Virus record (IMG/VR): IMGVR_UViG_2740892372_000012
DNA length: 6,494 nt
DNA from: a virus
Taxonomy: Duplodnaviria; Heunggongvirae; Uroviricota; Caudoviricetes
Direction: 5' to 3' (one strand)
Part shown: one piece after another, positions 1,172 to 6,223 of the stretch
Position numbering within the stretch: position 1 is the stretch's first letter
Layout of the letters: every line of letters begins with the position of its first letter
Notes under the pieces: model-generated
What the model saw: only the letters and a program-made list of their open reading frames with translations
Databases searched by the model: none
Told to the model about the DNA's origin: nothing
Made by a program: the position numbers and the translations under genes

Positions 1172-1201
1172 AGGAAAAAACAAAACCCGCCGAAGCGGGT
1201 T
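1172..1201 (-). terminator. Rho-independent terminator downstream of hok
   Basis: Minus-strand reading: stem AACCCGC (1190-1184), loop ttcg, stem GCGGGTT, followed directly by TTGTTTTTT (complement of plus 1175-1183). GC-rich 7-bp stem plus U-tract, about 70 nt after the hok stop. Confidence 0.6.
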
Positions 1202-1269
1202 AAGTGCGGGTGCGTTGAGGATGCCTGATTCATCAGAGGTGGCGAGGGATTTCTCCCCCGCCTGGTCTC

Positions 1270-1425
1270 TTACTCCTCAGGTTCGTAAGCTGTGAAGACA
1301 GCGACCTCCGTCTGGCCGGTTCGGATTCGTACCTCGCAGAGGTCTTTCCTCGTTACCAGTGCCGTCACTATGACGGTTAAACAGATGACGATCAGGGCGA
1401 TTAACATCGCCTTTTGCTGCTTCAT
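1270..1425 (-). CDS. hokD: Hok/Gef family type I toxin (51 aa, small membrane toxin)
   Basis: Translation MKQQKAMLIALIVICLTVIVTALVTRKDLCEVRIRTGQTEVAVFTAYEPEE matches the Hok/Gef family signature (hydrophobic helix, conserved Cys, C-terminal YE motif) and, from memory, the E. coli HokD/RelF sequence. AAGGAG SD 9 nt upstream of ATG 1423-1425. The ORF track lists a 70-aa in-frame extension from ATG 1480-1482, which has its own GAGG SD 8 nt upstream. Confidence 0.88.
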   Translation of the reverse strand: MKQQKAMLIALIVICLTVIVTALVTRKDLCEVRIRTGQTEVAVFTAYEPEE

Positions 1426-1546
1426 AGCCTGCTTCTCCTTGCCTTTCGGCACGTAAGAGGCTAACCTAGATTTGCCGTTCATAGATTGAGCCTCAGATTA
1501 ATGTTAAGCGTCTTGCAGGACGCGTAATGTTAACTGGGGCTTTTCT

Positions 1547-1582
1547 CTATCTGCCGTTGGTGTTCATGCCCGAGGCAGATAG
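1547..1582 (-). other. Inverted repeat (9-bp stem, 18-nt loop) in the region upstream of hok; possible leader RNA structure
   Basis: Plus 1547-1555 ctatctgcc is the exact reverse complement of 1574-1582 ggcagatag. Hok-family mRNAs are known to carry structured regulatory elements, but the role here is inference. Confidence 0.3.
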
Positions 1583-2029
1583 CCTCAAGCACCCGCAGCT
1601 ATTCTACTTAACTTCCCATTACCTCGCCAATATGAAATCGGTCAGAAAGACAGACGTCCCATAAGGACAACAACGGAAAAAGAGATTTTGCTTGATGCTA
1701 TTTACCTCTGCACCATGAAGTTGCGCCAAAATCCCAGTGGTGATAACAGGAATTTGGTTGTTGGTGATTGGGGAAAGAAGTACGTTAGACTGTGGGTTAG
1801 TTCATTGACATGATAGTTACCTGCCTTCAATTTCCTAAGCAAGCGATGTAAACGATAATCAATATCAAATGTATTGACAGGTAAAATAATAACGATGTAC
1901 CTTTGCTGATAACATATATCAGTCTTAAATCATAATGGAGGTAGATAAAATAACTAAACACACACAACAAATTTTTTATCAGTGACATAGCATATCTTAA
2001 GCATCCTTTAATGCTCATGGGGAGAACGC

Positions 2030-2803
2030 ATGACTAAACATATGGACATTCATTGTCAAACACGCATATTTAACTCAATTAACCATGACACCAAATATAA
2101 AATATGTATTTTTACTCCAAAAAACATTAAAAAAAATAATGCAACTCTTTATATACTTGATGGGAATAGTGCCAACAATTACATTTCTGATATTCTGCCT
2201 GTTATTGATGCACTACCCAATCCACCAGTGTTAGTTACACTTGGTTATGAATCTTGGAATAACCTTAGCATTCATCGCCGTGCTTACGATTATACTCCTG
2301 ATGGTGAAAATGCTATTGTTGATAACTCTAAACCAGCATGGATCTACTTTACTGGTGGAGGAAGCCAGTCTTTCCGAGAATTATTACTAACTCAGATCAT
2401 GCCATGGGTTAGTACTATTGCTCCGAACAGTTCCAGAATCGGTATATGGGGGCACTCGCTAGGTGCTATTTTTGTGCTTGATTGCTTAAAAAATAATTCA
2501 TGCTTTAACTATTATTATATATCTGCACCATCACTTCTATGGCAGAATGAAAGAATCATCAAGATAATTAAAGATGATATATCAGAATCAAAGCACACTA
2601 AAAGTATATGCTTGCTTAACGGAAATCTTAGCCTTGATTACTCCGCATCTTTATATCCTGAAGCCATCAAAGCGGAATCTGTTTTGAGAAATATTTTGAC
2701 AGAAAAATACAGTAATTTTTCTATTGTACAATTTCCAGAGCTCAATCATCAGGAGACTTTCTCTGCTGCACTCTGGAATAGCATTATTCATTTCAGCATA
2801 TAA
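2030..2803 (+). CDS. Alpha/beta-hydrolase fold esterase (esterase D / enterochelin-esterase-like family), no signal peptide; AT-rich cargo (moron) gene
   Basis: 257-aa ORF with GGGGAG SD 5 nt upstream of ATG 2030. Nucleophile elbow GHSLG (WGHSLGAIF), upstream LYILDGNS motif resembling the YLLDG motif of the putative-esterase family, and a His near the C-terminus (ELNHQETF) consistent with a Ser-Asp-His triad. Codon usage is strongly AT-biased compared with the flanking phage genes. Confidence 0.8.
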   Translation: MTKHMDIHCQTRIFNSINHDTKYKICIFTPKNIKKNNATLYILDGNSANNYISDILPVIDALPNPPVLVTLGYESWNNLSIHRRAYDYTPDGENAIVDNSKPAWIYFTGGGSQSFRELLLTQIMPWVSTIAPNSSRIGIWGHSLGAIFVLDCLKNNSCFNYYYISAPSLLWQNERIIKIIKDDISESKHTKSICLLNGNLSLDYSASLYPEAIKAESVLRNILTEKYSNFSIVQFPELNHQETFSAALWNSIIHFSI

Positions 2804-3154
2804 CAGAAAATATGTAATCACTTTATCAATCTAGCTAACATAACTGATATCAATCCTAATGGGTCTTTGAACATATTAAAAGATAACTTCTCATTTGTAC
2901 ATTGTTGTGTTCTTAGACCCATTTCAAAAATACTATTTTTTAGATACTAATAATTACATCCATTTAGCTATCTTCTAAATACTCCTCTCAGTTTCTTCAT
3001 TGGAGCTGATTCAACTCCGGCAATGCATACTAGGATCATTTTATAAGCATACAAACAACATCCAGACTGTGAATTATTGCTATTCATTTTCTATGTATCT
3101 GCTCTTTTCCCATCCACTGAAACACCAGAATCCAAAGGTTTCATGTTATTTTCA

Positions 3155-3568
3155 CTATTCCATCATTACTCCTGTGTAAAATATCAAAACTCGCTGCATC
3201 ACTTCACTGTTACGGCACTCACTACAAATTATGTTCAATTGCCTGTCATAGCGGCGTATTTCTCCGTCTGGTAATGACCAGATAAGGTCAGGATCAACCA
3301 CAACCGGTTTCTTCAGTTTTGCCCTCGATAGTTTTTTGCGGGCGTTTTGCCAGTCCTTACGAGCCTGTTCAGATGGGAATAACCCGTAACCAGAGTTGTA
3401 TACATCGCCACTGGCAACCAGCTCTCTGGCAAGAACGCTCATCAGATATCTTGTCGCACCTGTCTTGGCTTCCAGTTGCCGTAACGTCTCGCGCCCACTC
3501 CGGCGTACTAGCTCAACAACCTGCCCTTTAATTTTTTCCCGCTCTTCCTGTGTAAATACTTTTGCCAT
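3155..3568 (-). CDS. Hypothetical phage protein (137 aa), last gene of the replication-module operon
   Basis: ATG at 3566-3568 preceded by GGAGG (complement of 3574-3578) with a 5-nt spacer; stop TAG at 3155-3157. Start lies 15 nt after the upstream gene's stop. The ORF-track start (TTG 3583) is a less likely 5-codon extension. No recognisable catalytic motif. Confidence 0.7.
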   Translation of the reverse strand: MAKVFTQEEREKIKGQVVELVRRSGRETLRQLEAKTGATRYLMSVLARELVASGDVYNSGYGLFPSEQARKDWQNARKKLSRAKLKKPVVVDPDLIWSLPDGEIRRYDRQLNIICSECRNSEVMQRVLIFYTGVMME

Positions 3569-5128: not shown

Positions 5129-6223
5129 TCACCCCCTGAATCCCGGCGGAATTTCGGTATCCGGTTCAGAAATATGATTCACACAACGCTGGTTGTTCGT
5201 GCCGCTTACCGGGAGCAACCAGGGGTTTTCAAAATTCCGGTCCGGCCCAAAAAACGTCGTCGCTCGCTGAACAAATTCCGTTCCCGCTTTCCCGGTCGCC
5301 GCCAGGTATCTCGCGTAACGCCTCACACCATCCAGCATGGTCTCTGGTGGCACCCCCTCGCGCAATCTGGCCTTCCAGGCACTGAATGCGGATTTCTTCG
5401 GGTTTGCTCCGGCACGCAACGGGTACTCCCGCCAGACCTGTTCGAACACATCCGGATAATCCACTCGTCCCACAGACAGCCCGGTGTTTTCCGGGACTAC
5501 CCGATCGGCTTCCCGCTGAATGGCGGAATCGGCTTCAGGCTGCTGCAGTTGGTGTGATTGCTTCGGCCTTGCGGTCATCACCTGCTGCACAGCGCCCGAA
5601 TCGGCTTTCAGCGCATACGCTGAATCGGCTTCCGGTGTCGTGCCTGCTGGCTGACCAGGATTGACGGTCTGAACATCCCCTGCCTGGTTCGTGGCGTTTT
5701 TTACGCCATGGACCATAGTGTTTTGATCTTCTTGATCTGTATCTTTATCTGTATCTTTATCTGTATCTTTATCTGTATCTTTATCTGTCGTGACTCGTCG
5801 TGACATGTGCATGACATTTCGTGACGCGCCGTGACAATCGCCATTTTGTTCCCGCTTTCTTTCCCTCTCTCGCTGCGCCCTCTTGCGCTCTGCAGGAGAT
5901 TTTGCGGTTTGCGAAATATTGCCGTTGTCCTCTTTAAGCACCTGGCGTTTTTCCCATCCAGTGATTAAATCACCATCAAGTACCCGCCCCTGCATCGTCT
6001 GCAAAATTGAATCAATTACCTCTTCTGTCACGTCGAGCGCACTTGCCAAATCTTCTGTCGTGACATCAATGTGACCTCGCGTGACATTTCGTGACGCGCT
6101 CACCAGGAGGTGGATATACACTGCCATCACTGTTGCAATTGGCTGCCCTGACACCCTGGCAATTGTTCGCCACTTAGGGTCATTTGGCATGTCATGCCAT
6201 AATCTGAGCCAGGCGTTAGCCAT
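5129..6223 (-). CDS. Phage replication initiation protein: N-terminal DNA-binding (replisome-organizer-like) domain, (DKDT)n linker, C-terminal DnaT-like (primosomal protein I-like) domain
   Basis: C-terminus ...NHISEPDTEIPPGFRG matches the recalled C-terminus of E. coli DnaT (...SEPDSQIPPGFRG). Gene order DnaT-like then DnaC-like mirrors the host dnaTC operon. Start taken as ATG 6221-6223 (GAGG SD, 5-nt spacer) rather than the GTG at 6229 used in the ORF track. Stop TGA 5129-5131. Confidence 0.85.
   Translation of the reverse strand: MANAWLRLWHDMPNDPKWRTIARVSGQPIATVMAVYIHLLVSASRNVTRGHIDVTTEDLASALDVTEEVIDSILQTMQGRVLDGDLITGWEKRQVLKEDNGNISQTAKSPAERKRAQRERERKREQNGDCHGASRNVMHMSRRVTTDKDTDKDTDKDTDKDTDQEDQNTMVHGVKNATNQAGDVQTVNPGQPAGTTPEADSAYALKADSGAVQQVMTARPKQSHQLQQPEADSAIQREADRVVPENTGLSVGRVDYPDVFEQVWREYPLRAGANPKKSAFSAWKARLREGVPPETMLDGVRRYARYLAATGKAGTEFVQRATTFFGPDRNFENPWLLPVSGTNNQRCVNHISEPDTEIPPGFRG
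5735..5788. repeat. Perfect tandem repeat, 12-nt unit atctttatctgt x4 plus a partial copy, in frame inside the initiator gene (encodes DKDT repeats)
   Basis: Plus 5741-5788 is four exact copies of atctttatctgt, preceded by a partial unit at 5735-5740. The region is AT-rich, with two GATC sites just upstream (5724-5727, 5734-5737). Confidence 0.9.
5788..5835. repeat. Cluster of five phased (G/A)TGAC direct repeats at about 10-bp spacing (putative iterons, cluster 1)
   Basis: tcGTGAC at 5788-5794, 5798-5804, 5819-5825; gcATGAC at 5809-5815; ccGTGAC at 5829-5835. Spacing 10/11/10/10 bp, about one helical turn. The motif falls in different codon phases of the overlapping initiator ORF, so it is conserved at the DNA level, not the peptide level. 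Confidence 0.6.
6058..6095. repeat. Second cluster of four phased GTGAC direct repeats (putative iterons, cluster 2)
   Basis: GTGAC at 6060-6064, 6071-6075, 6081-6085, 6091-6095. The 18-mer tgacatttcgtgacgcgc is identical at 5812-5829 and 6082-6099, and both clusters are preceded by the same ctgtcgtgac 10-mer (5785-5794, 6055-6064). Confidence 0.6.

What the first reader, a model, noticed from the sequence alone, without database searches (positions are those of the whole stretch)
1172..1482. Orphan hok toxin without relBE, with an in-frame 19-codon upstream extension carrying its own SD
The 51-aa toxin is essentially HokD/RelF, but here it is not preceded by relB-relE as in E. coli K-12 Qin; upstream is non-coding AT-rich DNA and a foreign esterase. 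Two in-frame starts each have an SD (GAGG before ATG 1482, AAGGAG before ATG 1425), giving a possible 70-aa extended form or a mok-like coupling frame. A clean terminator follows. If active, a prophage-borne Hok could act as an addiction or abortive-infection module.
Basis: partly seen in the sequence, partly recalled or inferred. Interest (0 to 1): 0.6.

Follow-up and report, generated by a model that had tools for sequence, protein, structure and literature searches.

The report
Complete prophage hok/mok/sok toxin-antitoxin cassette
This is an ordinary, well-known prophage copy of the hok/mok/sok type I toxin-antitoxin cassette, complete with its antisense RNA antitoxin: the "extra" 19 codons are the known mok leader frame, and the E. 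coli K-12 relBE-hokD arrangement is the truncated form.

Summary
The ORF, the two in-frame starts with their SDs, the terminator and the absence of relBE are all real. The toxin is not an orphan, however. The finding's coordinates (1172-1482) stop short of a unit that runs from about 1630 to 1175 on the minus strand.

The 155 nt upstream of the hok SD are not anonymous AT-rich DNA. They are the conserved hok mRNA leader (Rfam RF01794, 107 bits, E 2.5e-24). The cis-antisense Sok antitoxin gene lies on the plus strand (1474-1550).

Ab initio folds reproduce the published hok switch: tac/fbi closure with the mok SD sequestered by ucb in the full-length mRNA, tac/ucb plus SD/dcb after 3' truncation, and a metastable 5' hairpin.

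The 19-codon extension is mok. K-12 mokC and mokA are likewise in frame with their hok genes.

K-12 relBE-hokD shares only 1439-1175 and has no RF01794 match, so K-12 is the rearranged derivative.

The full cassette is in 3819 of 5426 complete E. coli genomes. The 94%-identical hokW-sokW of Stx phage Sp5 has been characterised experimentally. Verdict: already known, low interest.

The parts
1601..1630 (-). hok/mok promoter-like site: -35 TTGGCG (1630-1625), 18-nt spacer, -10 TAGAAT (1606-1601). The -10 ends 7 nt before the mRNA 5' end at 1594.
   Evidence: scan. The -10 is conserved in the hokW locus, and TATAAT sits at the same place in K-12 hokC.
1176..1594 (-). Full-length hok (mok-hok) mRNA, about 419 nt, from the tac 5' end to the terminator U-tract.
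   Evidence: The 5' end is position 1 of the RF01794 match. The 3' end is the terminator. The fold is -172.9 kcal/mol, z = -7.7.
1583..1594 (-). tac (translational activator) element GGGUGCUUGAGG at the mRNA 5' end.
   Evidence: It pairs with fbi in the full-length fold and with ucb in the truncated fold. It also forms a metastable hairpin with 1576-1566 in the nascent 35 nt (-18.8 kcal/mol, z = -5.0).
1534..1541 (-). ucb (upstream complementary box, the anti-SD), AGCCCCAG. The GCCCC core is invariant in 8 hok loci.
   Evidence: It pairs with the mok SD in the full-length fold and with tac in the truncated fold.
1491..1494 (-). mok Shine-Dalgarno GAGG.
   Evidence: Read. Sequestered. GAGGC is conserved upstream of the mok ATG in all 8 loci compared.
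1270..1482 (-). mok reading frame: 70 codons plus stop, in frame with hok, with 19 codons upstream of the hok AUG.
   Evidence: K-12 mokC and mokA also share their stop codon with hokC and hokA. The 70-aa ORF is annotated as MokW / gef / ORF-33c in phage records.
1457..1462 (-). dcb (downstream complementary box) AGCCUC, which pairs with the mok SD region after 3' truncation.
   Evidence: SD/dcb stem over mRNA nt 101-138.
1435..1440 (-). hok Shine-Dalgarno AAGGAG. K-12 hokD homology begins at 1439.
1270..1425 (-). hok toxin gene (HokD allele): 51 codons plus TAA.
   Evidence: PHROG 251 'MokW-like host killing', 113 bits.
1284..1287 (-). TACG at Tyr47, the TadA A-to-I editing motif (Tyr to Cys) described for K-12 hokD.
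   Evidence: Read. Literature: PMC5630033 and PMC12214031.
1241..1262 (-). 3' UTR hairpin GGCGGGGGAGAAAUCCCUCGCC, expected to be part of the 3'-terminal structure that protects the truncated mRNA from 3' exonucleases.
   Evidence: Present in the folds. The protective role is inferred by analogy with R1 (PMC9841398).
1208..1220 (-). fbi (fold-back inhibition) element CCUCAACGCACCC, complementary to tac with one bulged C.
   Evidence: closing stem; duplex -21.5 kcal/mol, 1 of 200 shuffled tac sequences as good.
1175..1201 (-). Intrinsic terminator of hok mRNA: stem 1201-1184 followed by a U-tract.
1439..1467 (+). sok promoter: -35 TTGCCT (1439-1444), 17-nt spacer, -10 TAACCT (1462-1467).
   Evidence: Read. 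The -10 is identical in hokW-sokW and is the stretch replaced by primer YO-421 in the promoter-less sokW mutant (PMC8621323). It falls below the threshold of the scan.
1474..1550 (+). Sok antisense RNA antitoxin, about 77 nt: a single-stranded 5' tail complementary to the mok start codon, a terminator hairpin (1488-1542) whose 5' arm is complementary to the mok SD, and then CUUUUCUCU.
   Evidence: Both ends were mapped from the annotated K-12 sokC ends through alignment A3. The fold is -33 kcal/mol, z = -5.8. It lies inside the RF01794 match.

Best explanation
Window 1630-1175 (minus strand), together with 1439-1550 (plus strand), is a complete hok/mok/sok type I toxin-antitoxin cassette of the hokD/hokW type. 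It sits in the nin-like region of a lambdoid (Stx-phage-like) prophage, between an AT-rich cargo island and the DUF968-RusA-Q genes.

Mechanism, inferred from the anatomy and from the R1 and hokW paradigms:
1. A constitutive promoter makes a stable mRNA of about 419 nt.
2. While the mRNA is nascent, its 5' tac element is held in a metastable hairpin.
3. Once the mRNA is complete, tac pairs with fbi near the 3' end. The mok SD is then sequestered by ucb, so the mRNA is neither translated nor bound by Sok.
4. Slow 3' trimming removes fbi. Tac then switches to ucb, and the mok SD region refolds with dcb into the Sok-target hairpin.
5. Ribosomes that start at the mok AUG (1482) read through the hok initiation region and allow initiation at the hok AUG (1425). 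Because mok is in frame here, they also make a 70-aa extended Hok.
6. The abundant but unstable Sok RNA (1474-1550, plus strand) pairs through its 5' tail with the mok start region. This blocks mok translation, and therefore hok translation, and triggers RNase III decay.
7. When Sok synthesis stops, whether through prophage loss, prophage induction or transcription shut-off by an infecting phage, HokD is made, inserts into the inner membrane and depolarises or lyses the cell.

The most likely biological role, by analogy with hokW-sokW, is to help lysis and phage release after induction and/or to stabilise the prophage.

Shown here: the sequence elements, their conservation and the predicted alternative folds. 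Inferred: transcription, 3' processing, toxicity and the biological role.
For: - Rfam RF01794 matches 1594..1420 over model positions 1-157 at 107.1 bits (gathering score 59), E 2.5e-24. The same model matches K-12 hokC, hokB and hokE, R1-type hok, hokW and others, each spanning the annotated sok gene on the opposite strand.
- Pfam HOK_GEF scores 81.6 bits. PHROG 251 'MokW-like host killing' scores 113 bits.
- The full-length fold closes tac(1-12)/fbi and pairs ucb with the mok SD, z = -7.7.
- The fold without fbi gives tac/ucb and SD/dcb.
- A metastable 5' hairpin forms, z = -5.0.
- The Sok fold has z = -5.8.
- The tac/fbi duplex is -21.5 kcal/mol against -15.5 +/- 2.1 for shuffled tac. Compensatory changes keep the pairing in other loci: hokB has tac U7>C with fbi A>G and tac G12>A with fbi C>U; R1-type and Atlantibacter loci have tac U4>C with fbi A>G.
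- The Sok 5' end (1474) and 3' end (1550) map exactly onto the annotated ends of K-12 sokC. The -10 TAACCT is identical to that of hokW-sokW and is the site mutated in the promoter-less construct of PMC8621323.
- A mok offset of 57 or 58 nt with a GAGGC SD is seen in 8 of 8 loci.
- K-12 relBE-hokD shares only 1439-1175 and has no RF01794 match.
- hokW-sokW (Stx2 phage I / Sp5 type, 93.6% identical over 82% of the query) is experimentally a type I TA that increases phage release (PMC8621323).
- HokD was used as a known-toxic control in the Hok survey (bioRxiv 10.1101/2025.08.07.668861).
Against: - There are no expression data for this locus. The transcripts, their ends and 3' processing are all inferred.
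- The sok -10 (TAACCT) is a weak consensus match and was not called by the promoter scan.
[quoted passage not shown] Intact anatomy therefore does not guarantee the plasmid-type phenotype.
- NCBIfam Hok models score below their curated cut-offs (48.5 against 73).
- PADLOC has no model that matches.
Confidence: 0.9

Rival explanations
1. Regulated but physiologically silent locus. The cassette is anatomically intact, but Sok is in such excess, or 3' processing is so slow, that Hok is never produced at killing levels. It would then persist as a hitch-hiking, selfish or neutral passenger of the prophage.
For: Intact chromosomal hokA, hokB and hokC loci were reported not to mediate PSK and not to be activated by rifampicin (text quoted). 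K-12 hok loci are widely described as inactive.
Against: - The close homologue hokW-sokW produces HokW on induction and changes lysis and phage yield.
- The cassette shows no IS insertion, stop codon or loss of any element.
- 452 records match at 99% identity or more, and the cassette is present in 3819 genomes.
- An R1 hok expressed from the chromosome without Sok is lethal (PMC9841398).
Confidence: 0.07
2. One reading: an orphan HokD toxin that has lost its relBE partners, that is, a deletion derivative of a relBEF-type operon left without an antitoxin.
For: The Hok CDS and 3' UTR are virtually identical to K-12 hokD, and relBE is absent.
Against: - The 155 nt upstream of 1439 are homologous to the leaders of hokC, hokB, hokE and R1 hok. 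They must therefore be ancestral to the family, and K-12 lacks them.
- The full-leader form is about three times commoner than the relE-hokD junction: 3819 against 1173 genomes.
- Both forms occur at different sites in one genome, E2865 (H1 and H91).
- RelB neutralises RelE, not Hok (established knowledge of type II relBE).
Confidence: 0.01
3. The 70-aa product started at 1482 (Mok fused in frame to HokD) is itself the main functional toxin, and the internal 51-aa start is secondary.
For: mok is in frame here, in hokW, in PPompW gef, in an Atlantibacter plasmid locus and in K-12 mokC and mokA. Every mok translation event therefore yields a protein that contains all of Hok.
Against: - Cassettes that are 87-93% identical (Rac hok, pE92 hokD), as well as hokB and R1, have a 58-nt offset that puts mok in the +1 frame. 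The fusion is therefore not conserved.
- In R1 only translation of mok up to the hok initiation region matters, not the Mok product (PMC9841398).
- The hok SD AAGGAG and AUG are invariant.
- The 51-aa HokW alone is toxic.
Confidence: 0.04

Closest known systems
hokW-mokW-sokW of Stx2 phage Sp5 / 933W-type phages (PMC8621323)
   Same: - Same slot in a lambdoid prophage.
- 93.6% DNA identity over about 420 nt.
- Identical tac, ucb, fbi and hok SD.
- Identical sok -10 TAACCT, and the same 16-nt insertion in the Sok hairpin.
- mok is in frame and 70 aa long.
- Hok residues 1-44 are identical.
   Different: - The Hok C-terminus is ...FTAYEPEE here (the K-12 HokD allele) against ...FVDYESEK in HokW.
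- Mok residues 2-5 and the Sok 5' tail differ at 6 of the first 18 Sok nucleotides. The predicted duplex is -33 kcal/mol for the cognate pair against -15 to -19 for the cross pairs.
- The Stx2 phage I copy lacks the terminator hairpin after fbi.
E. coli K-12 hokD (relF), third gene of relBEF in cryptic prophage Qin
   Same: - The hok CDS is identical at the DNA level. The 3' UTR, fbi and terminator are nearly identical (window 1439-1175).
- Same downstream neighbourhood: a DUF968/YdfU gene, then Q.
   Different: - K-12 lacks the hok promoter, tac, ucb, the mok SD and start, dcb, the sok promoter and Sok. It has no RF01794 match.
- relE ends 71 nt upstream instead.
- K-12 is the rearranged derivative.
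hok/mok/sok of plasmid R1 (the paradigm)
   Same: - All the named RNA elements are present: tac/fbi, ucb/SD, tac/ucb, SD/dcb and the metastable hairpin.
- A GAGG mok SD, and about 19 mok codons before the hok AUG.
- Sok has a 5' tail plus a hairpin.
   Different: - The R1 locus is plasmid-borne.
- Its mok is in the +1 frame (58-nt offset).
- Its Hok protein is only distantly similar (44% identity is reported for HokW against Hok).
- The Sok hairpin here is 16-18 nt longer.
E. coli K-12 hokC/mokC/sokC (gef)
   Same: - mok is in frame with hok with a 57-nt offset.
- The Sok 5' end lies 8 nt inside mok, counted from the A of the AUG.
- RF01794 scores 118 bits.
   Different: - A chromosomal locus that is not in a prophage.
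- In K-12 an IS186 lies 20 nt after the hokC stop and removes fbi and the terminator.

Membership tests
hok/mok/sok type I toxin-antitoxin | Small hydrophobic Hok/Gef toxin (Pfam PF01848) | tested here: met
   81.6 bits against a cut-off of 22. The CDS is identical to K-12 hokD.
hok/mok/sok type I toxin-antitoxin | Conserved structured hok mRNA leader that carries sok on the opposite strand (Rfam RF01794) | tested here: met
   107.1 bits against a gathering score of 59, full model 1-157. Positive controls were K-12 hokB, hokC and hokE and R1-type hok. The negative control was the K-12 Qin relBE-hokD region.
hok/mok/sok type I toxin-antitoxin | mok reading frame with its own GAGG SD that starts about 57-58 nt upstream of, and runs across, the hok start | tested here: met
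   ATG 1482 and GAGG 1494-1491. The offset is 57 or 58 nt in 8 of 8 loci.
hok/mok/sok type I toxin-antitoxin | cis-antisense Sok gene: a promoter inside mok, a 5' tail across the mok initiation region, and a terminator hairpin | tested here: met
   The promoter is at 1439-1467 and the RNA at 1474-1550. Its ends were mapped from the annotated sokC ends. The -10 is identical to the one mutated experimentally in sokW. The fold has z = -5.8. The transcript itself was not observed.
hok/mok/sok type I toxin-antitoxin | Long-range tac/fbi pairing that closes the full-length mRNA | tested here: met
   It is present in the minimum-free-energy fold. The duplex is -21.5 kcal/mol, with 1 of 200 shuffles as good, and compensatory changes occur across the hokB, R1-type and Atlantibacter loci.
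hok/mok/sok type I toxin-antitoxin | ucb sequesters the mok SD in the full-length mRNA; tac/ucb and SD/dcb form after 3' truncation; a metastable 5' hairpin forms in the nascent RNA | tested here: met
   These are thermodynamic predictions only. The ucb GCCCC is invariant and the SD GAGGC is conserved, so covariation there is uninformative.
hok/mok/sok type I toxin-antitoxin | Hok kills on expression, Sok neutralises it, and the mRNA is processed at its 3' end | not testable with these tools
   Literature only. HokD was a known-toxic control in a survey. hokW-sokW was validated experimentally.
relBEF operon arrangement (K-12 Qin) | relB and relE immediately upstream of hokD, co-transcribed with it | tested here: not met
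   There is no relB or relE ORF or homology upstream. The K-12 junction is found in 1173 genomes, always at other loci.
TadA-edited hok mRNAs | A Tyr codon TAC within TACG at the position that aligns with HokB Cys46 | tested here: met
   TACG at 1287-1284 is Tyr47. The motif and hokD editing (6%) come. Editing of this transcript was not tested.

The most novel reading that the evidence does not exclude
Two features could have functional meaning beyond the textbook model.

(1) mok is in frame here, so ribosomes make a 70-aa N-terminally extended HokD as well as the 51-aa toxin. A single-nucleotide 57/58-nt toggle among 87-93%-identical cassettes switches loci between producing two Hok isoforms and producing one.

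(2) The only substitution hot spot inside the cassette (1481-1468) is the Sok 5' tail, which corresponds to mok codons 2-5. This could give each of the several co-resident prophage cassettes a private, non-cross-reacting antitoxin.

Neither point has been shown to matter.
Probability: 0.15. Interest if true: 0.35.

Novelty: already known. Interest (0 to 1): 0.1.

Why it matters
It matters little as a discovery. It is a correct example of a textbook system, and RefSeq already names the gene hokD.

It is useful as a correction. RefSeq annotates only the 51-aa CDS in these prophages, so mok, Sok and the RNA switch elements are invisible to a reader. The K-12 relBEF arrangement then misleads people into treating relBE as the context of hokD.

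Intact prophage hok/sok cassettes are present in most E. coli genomes, with a median of 2 and up to 10 matching places per genome that has any. They may influence lysis timing of Stx phages (PMC8621323).

Tried and rejected
- **PADLOC:** the scan found nothing for Hok or its neighbours apart from weak hits on the DUF1627 protein.
- **NCBIfam:** the Hok models fall below their cut-offs, so the naming rests on Pfam, PHROG, Rfam and identity to K-12.
- **isrK:** a sub-threshold match (27 bits against a gathering score of 50) over the hok 3' UTR. I judged it to be a two-hairpin-plus-terminator resemblance and not a membership.
- **ceN48 and CRISPR-DR57:** these hits are chance.
- **Column-wise covariation of tac/fbi:** a count on MAFFT alignment A2 was abandoned. 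The R1-type and hokB fbi segments are shifted by one register and a moved bulge.
- **R1-type locus L010:** dropped because an IS150 abuts its leader.
- **K-12 hokA:** IS150-disrupted, with no RF01794 hit.
- **Klebsiella L015:** no hit at the gathering score.
- **Literature search for mokW/hokW/933W:** returned nothing in the held library.
- **Promoter scan:** it did not call the sok promoter, which was located by homology instead.

Full report
**1. Observation**

On the minus strand the window carries a 51-codon ORF (ATG 1425-1423, stop 1272-1270) and an in-frame ATG at 1482-1480, which gives a 70-codon ORF.
- GAGG lies at 1494-1491, 8 nt before the upstream ATG. AAGGAG lies at 1440-1435, 9 nt before the hok ATG.
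- A 7-bp GC-rich hairpin at 1201-1184 followed by TTTTGTTTTTT is called as an intrinsic terminator.
- The protein matches Pfam HOK_GEF at 81.6 bits.
- Its DNA is identical to K-12 hokD over the whole CDS.
- No relB or relE is present.

The factual core of the finding is therefore correct. One part is wrong: the description of the upstream flank as anonymous non-coding AT-rich DNA. Positions 1483-1630 have about 46-53% GC in the overlapping 300-nt windows. The AT-rich island (GC 0.29-0.39) begins only at about 1650.

**2. What the upstream flank is**

The Rfam family RF01794 ('sok') matches 1594..1420 on the hok-sense strand over all 157 model positions, at 107.1 bits (gathering score 59), E = 2.5e-24.

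The same model hits K-12 hokC, hokB and hokE, an R1-type plasmid hok, hokW of an Stx2 phage and other loci. In each case it spans the annotated sok gene on the opposite strand. It gives no hit in 9 kb around K-12 relBE-hokD. The model therefore describes the hok mRNA leader, with the antisense gene embedded in it.

Other elements in this flank:
- A sigma-70-like promoter, TTGGCG-18-TAGAAT (1630-1601), ends 7 nt upstream of model position 1 at 1594.
- On the plus strand, TTGCCT-17-TAACCT (1439-1467) precedes a predicted Sok RNA.
- Projecting the annotated ends of K-12 sokC through alignment A3 places Sok at 1474-1550.
- This 77-nt RNA folds into a free 5' tail plus a long hairpin followed by CUUUUCUCU (-33 kcal/mol, z = -5.8).
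- The TAACCT box is identical in hokW-sokW. It is the stretch replaced in the promoter-less sokW mutant of Takada et al. (primer YO-421, PMC8621323).

**3. The RNA switch**

The published hok mechanism (summarised in PMC9841398) has three parts:
- a tac/fbi 5'-3' closing stem, with the mok SD sequestered by ucb, in the full-length mRNA;
- tac/ucb and SD/dcb stems after 3' trimming;
- a metastable 5' hairpin during transcription.

Unconstrained folding of 1594-1176 reproduces the first state. Nucleotides 1-12 (GGGUGCUUGAGG) pair with CCUCAACGCACCC (1220-1208), and AGCCCCAG (1541-1534) pairs with the mok SD (-172.9 kcal/mol, z = -7.7).

Removing fbi (folding 1594-1221) gives tac/ucb and an SD/dcb hairpin. 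The loop of that hairpin exposes the complement of the Sok 5' end.

The first 35 nt form the metastable hairpin (-18.8 kcal/mol, z = -5.0).

Across eight loci the tac/fbi duplex is retained through compensatory changes:
- hokB: tac U7>C with fbi A>G, and tac G12>A with fbi C>U.
- R1-type and Atlantibacter loci: tac U4>C with fbi A>G.

All of them are.

**4. The 19-codon extension is mok**
- In K-12, mokC and hokC share the same stop codon and their starts are 57 nt apart. mokA and hokA also share a stop.
- The 70-aa ORF is annotated as MokW, gef or ORF-33c in phage records.
- Among eight loci the offset is 57 nt (in frame) in the window, hokW, PPompW gef and an Atlantibacter plasmid.
- It is 58 nt (+1 frame) in Rac hok, pE92 hokD, K-12 hokB and R1.
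- Cassettes that are 87-93% identical differ in this respect. That fits the published conclusion that translation of mok up to the hok start matters and the Mok product does not.

**5. Relation to relBE-hokD**

K-12 shares only window 1439-1175: the hok SD, CDS, 3' UTR, fbi and terminator. It lacks everything upstream. The missing part is homologous to the leaders of all other hok loci, so K-12 is the derived form. This agrees with the literature statement that hokD was inactivated by genomic rearrangement (PMC12214031).
- The full cassette (at least 80% of 511 nt) occurs in 3819 of 5426 complete E. coli genomes.
- The relE-hokD junction occurs in 1173.
- Strain E2865 has both, at different sites (H1, H91).

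The toxin here is not an orphan. It has its cognate RNA antitoxin.

**6. Context**

The whole window is 99.8% identical to an O145 STEC prophage.

The gene order on the minus strand is:
- replication initiator (replisome organizer);
- DnaC-like ATPase;
- DUF1627 protein;
- DUF977 protein;
- AT-rich island with a divergently oriented hydrolase;
- hok/sok;
- 92-aa ORF;
- DUF968 protein.

RusA and Q follow just beyond the window's left end in the O145 prophage.

K-12 Qin has hokD in a comparable slot upstream of the DUF968 gene ydfU and the Q homologue ydfT.

**7. Function**

The closest studied relative is hokW-sokW of Sp5, represented here by the Sp5-type Stx2 phage I locus at 93.6% identity. 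It is a functional type I TA:
- sokW RNA disappears and HokW accumulates in the inner membrane after mitomycin C, in a RecA-dependent way.
- Deleting the locus halves phage release.

R1 hok/sok mediates post-segregational killing and partial T4 exclusion. I therefore commit to the canonical Sok/mok/hok mechanism (confidence 0.9). I regard help with lysis after induction and/or prophage stabilisation as the likeliest role. That role is inferred and was not shown here. The main caveat is that intact chromosomal hok loci have failed PSK tests.

**8. Novelty**

None of substance. The locus is annotated hokD in RefSeq, its phage copies are annotated Mok/Hok, and a PHROG family and an Rfam family cover it. 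Its mechanism has been a paradigm for decades, and prophage enrichment of hok has been surveyed (bioRxiv 10.1101/2025.08.07.668861).

The residual points of mild interest are:
- the in-frame/out-of-frame mok toggle;
- the substitution hot spot at the Sok 5' tail, with a mismatch fraction of 0.37 at 1481-1468 against 0-0.08 in the hok CDS;
- predicted cognate duplexes of about -33 kcal/mol, against -6 to -19 kcal/mol for pairs involving this window's Sok or its target.

Noticed in passing
window 2030-2803 (+), island about 1650-3300: The 'foreign esterase' is an IroE-like siderophore (salmochelin/enterobactin) esterase homologue: PDB 2gzr IroE, E 5e-26 over residues 8-253, and full-length PHROG 8493 of unknown function. 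It sits in an AT-rich island (GC 0.29-0.39) and is transcribed divergently from hok. In O26:H11 11368 the same gene is split by IS1203. It looks like a possible iron-acquisition moron of STEC prophages.
   Followed up: partly
window 5730-5788 and 5789-5835, 6059-6095: Inside the replication-initiator gene there is a 12-bp tandem repeat (TCTTTATCTGTA x4.9, encoding DKDT repeats). It is flanked by two clusters of same-strand CGTGAC motifs: 7 of the 9 window matches, against 2.65 expected by chance. These are candidate iterons or an origin within the initiator gene, as in lambda O. The O145 genomes match the window with a 12-bp length difference (6482 against 6494), which may be a repeat-copy polymorphism.
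   Followed up: partly
window 1284-1287 (-): Hok Tyr47 is encoded by TAC followed by G. This is the TadA A-to-I editing motif that recodes Tyr to Cys in K-12 hokC, hokD and hokE (hokD 6% edited). Editing would supply the second cysteine, opposite Cys30.
   Followed up: partly
window 1482 vs 1425; loci L005-L008, L011, L014, L016, L003, L012: The mok-to-hok start offset toggles between 57 nt (in frame, Mok = extended Hok) and 58 nt (+1 frame) among closely related cassettes. It is in frame here and in hokW, PPompW gef, mokC and mokA. It is out of frame in Rac hok, pE92 hokD, mokB and R1.
   Followed up: partly
window 1468-1481: Among five hokD-type cassettes, the substitution hot spot is mok codons 2-5, which is also the Sok 5' recognition tail. 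The mismatch fraction is 0.37 there, against 0-0.08 in the hok CDS. Predicted duplexes of the Sok 5' 18 nt are about -33 kcal/mol for cognate pairs and -6 to -19 kcal/mol for pairs involving this window's Sok or its target. Some other non-cognate pairs are much closer to cognate values: Rac/pE92 at -23 to -28 kcal/mol and PPompW/Atlantibacter at -27 to -30 kcal/mol. This suggests insulation between co-resident copies; genomes carry up to 10 matching places. The co-resident copies in the source genome were not examined.
   Followed up: partly
window 1180-1261 (-): A sub-threshold Rfam match to the Salmonella prophage sRNA isrK (27 bits, gathering score 50, E 0.008) covers the hok 3' UTR hairpin and terminator. 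It is probably only a shared two-hairpin architecture.
   Followed up: no
window 1655-1669 (-): A terminator-like hairpin (TGTCCTTATGGGACG followed by a T-rich tail) lies just upstream of the hok promoter. It could insulate the cassette from read-through out of the island and the early genes.
   Followed up: no
L005 (Stx2 converting phage I) about 690-720: The hokW copy keeps fbi but lacks the GC hairpin terminator that follows fbi in the window, K-12, PPompW and Rac. Its hok mRNA 3' end must lie elsewhere.
   Followed up: no
L001, L004 (RefSeq annotation of O26 and O145 prophages): RefSeq annotates only the 51-aa hokD CDS at this locus. mok, Sok RNA and the leader are not annotated, which probably caused the 'orphan' impression.
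   Followed up: yes
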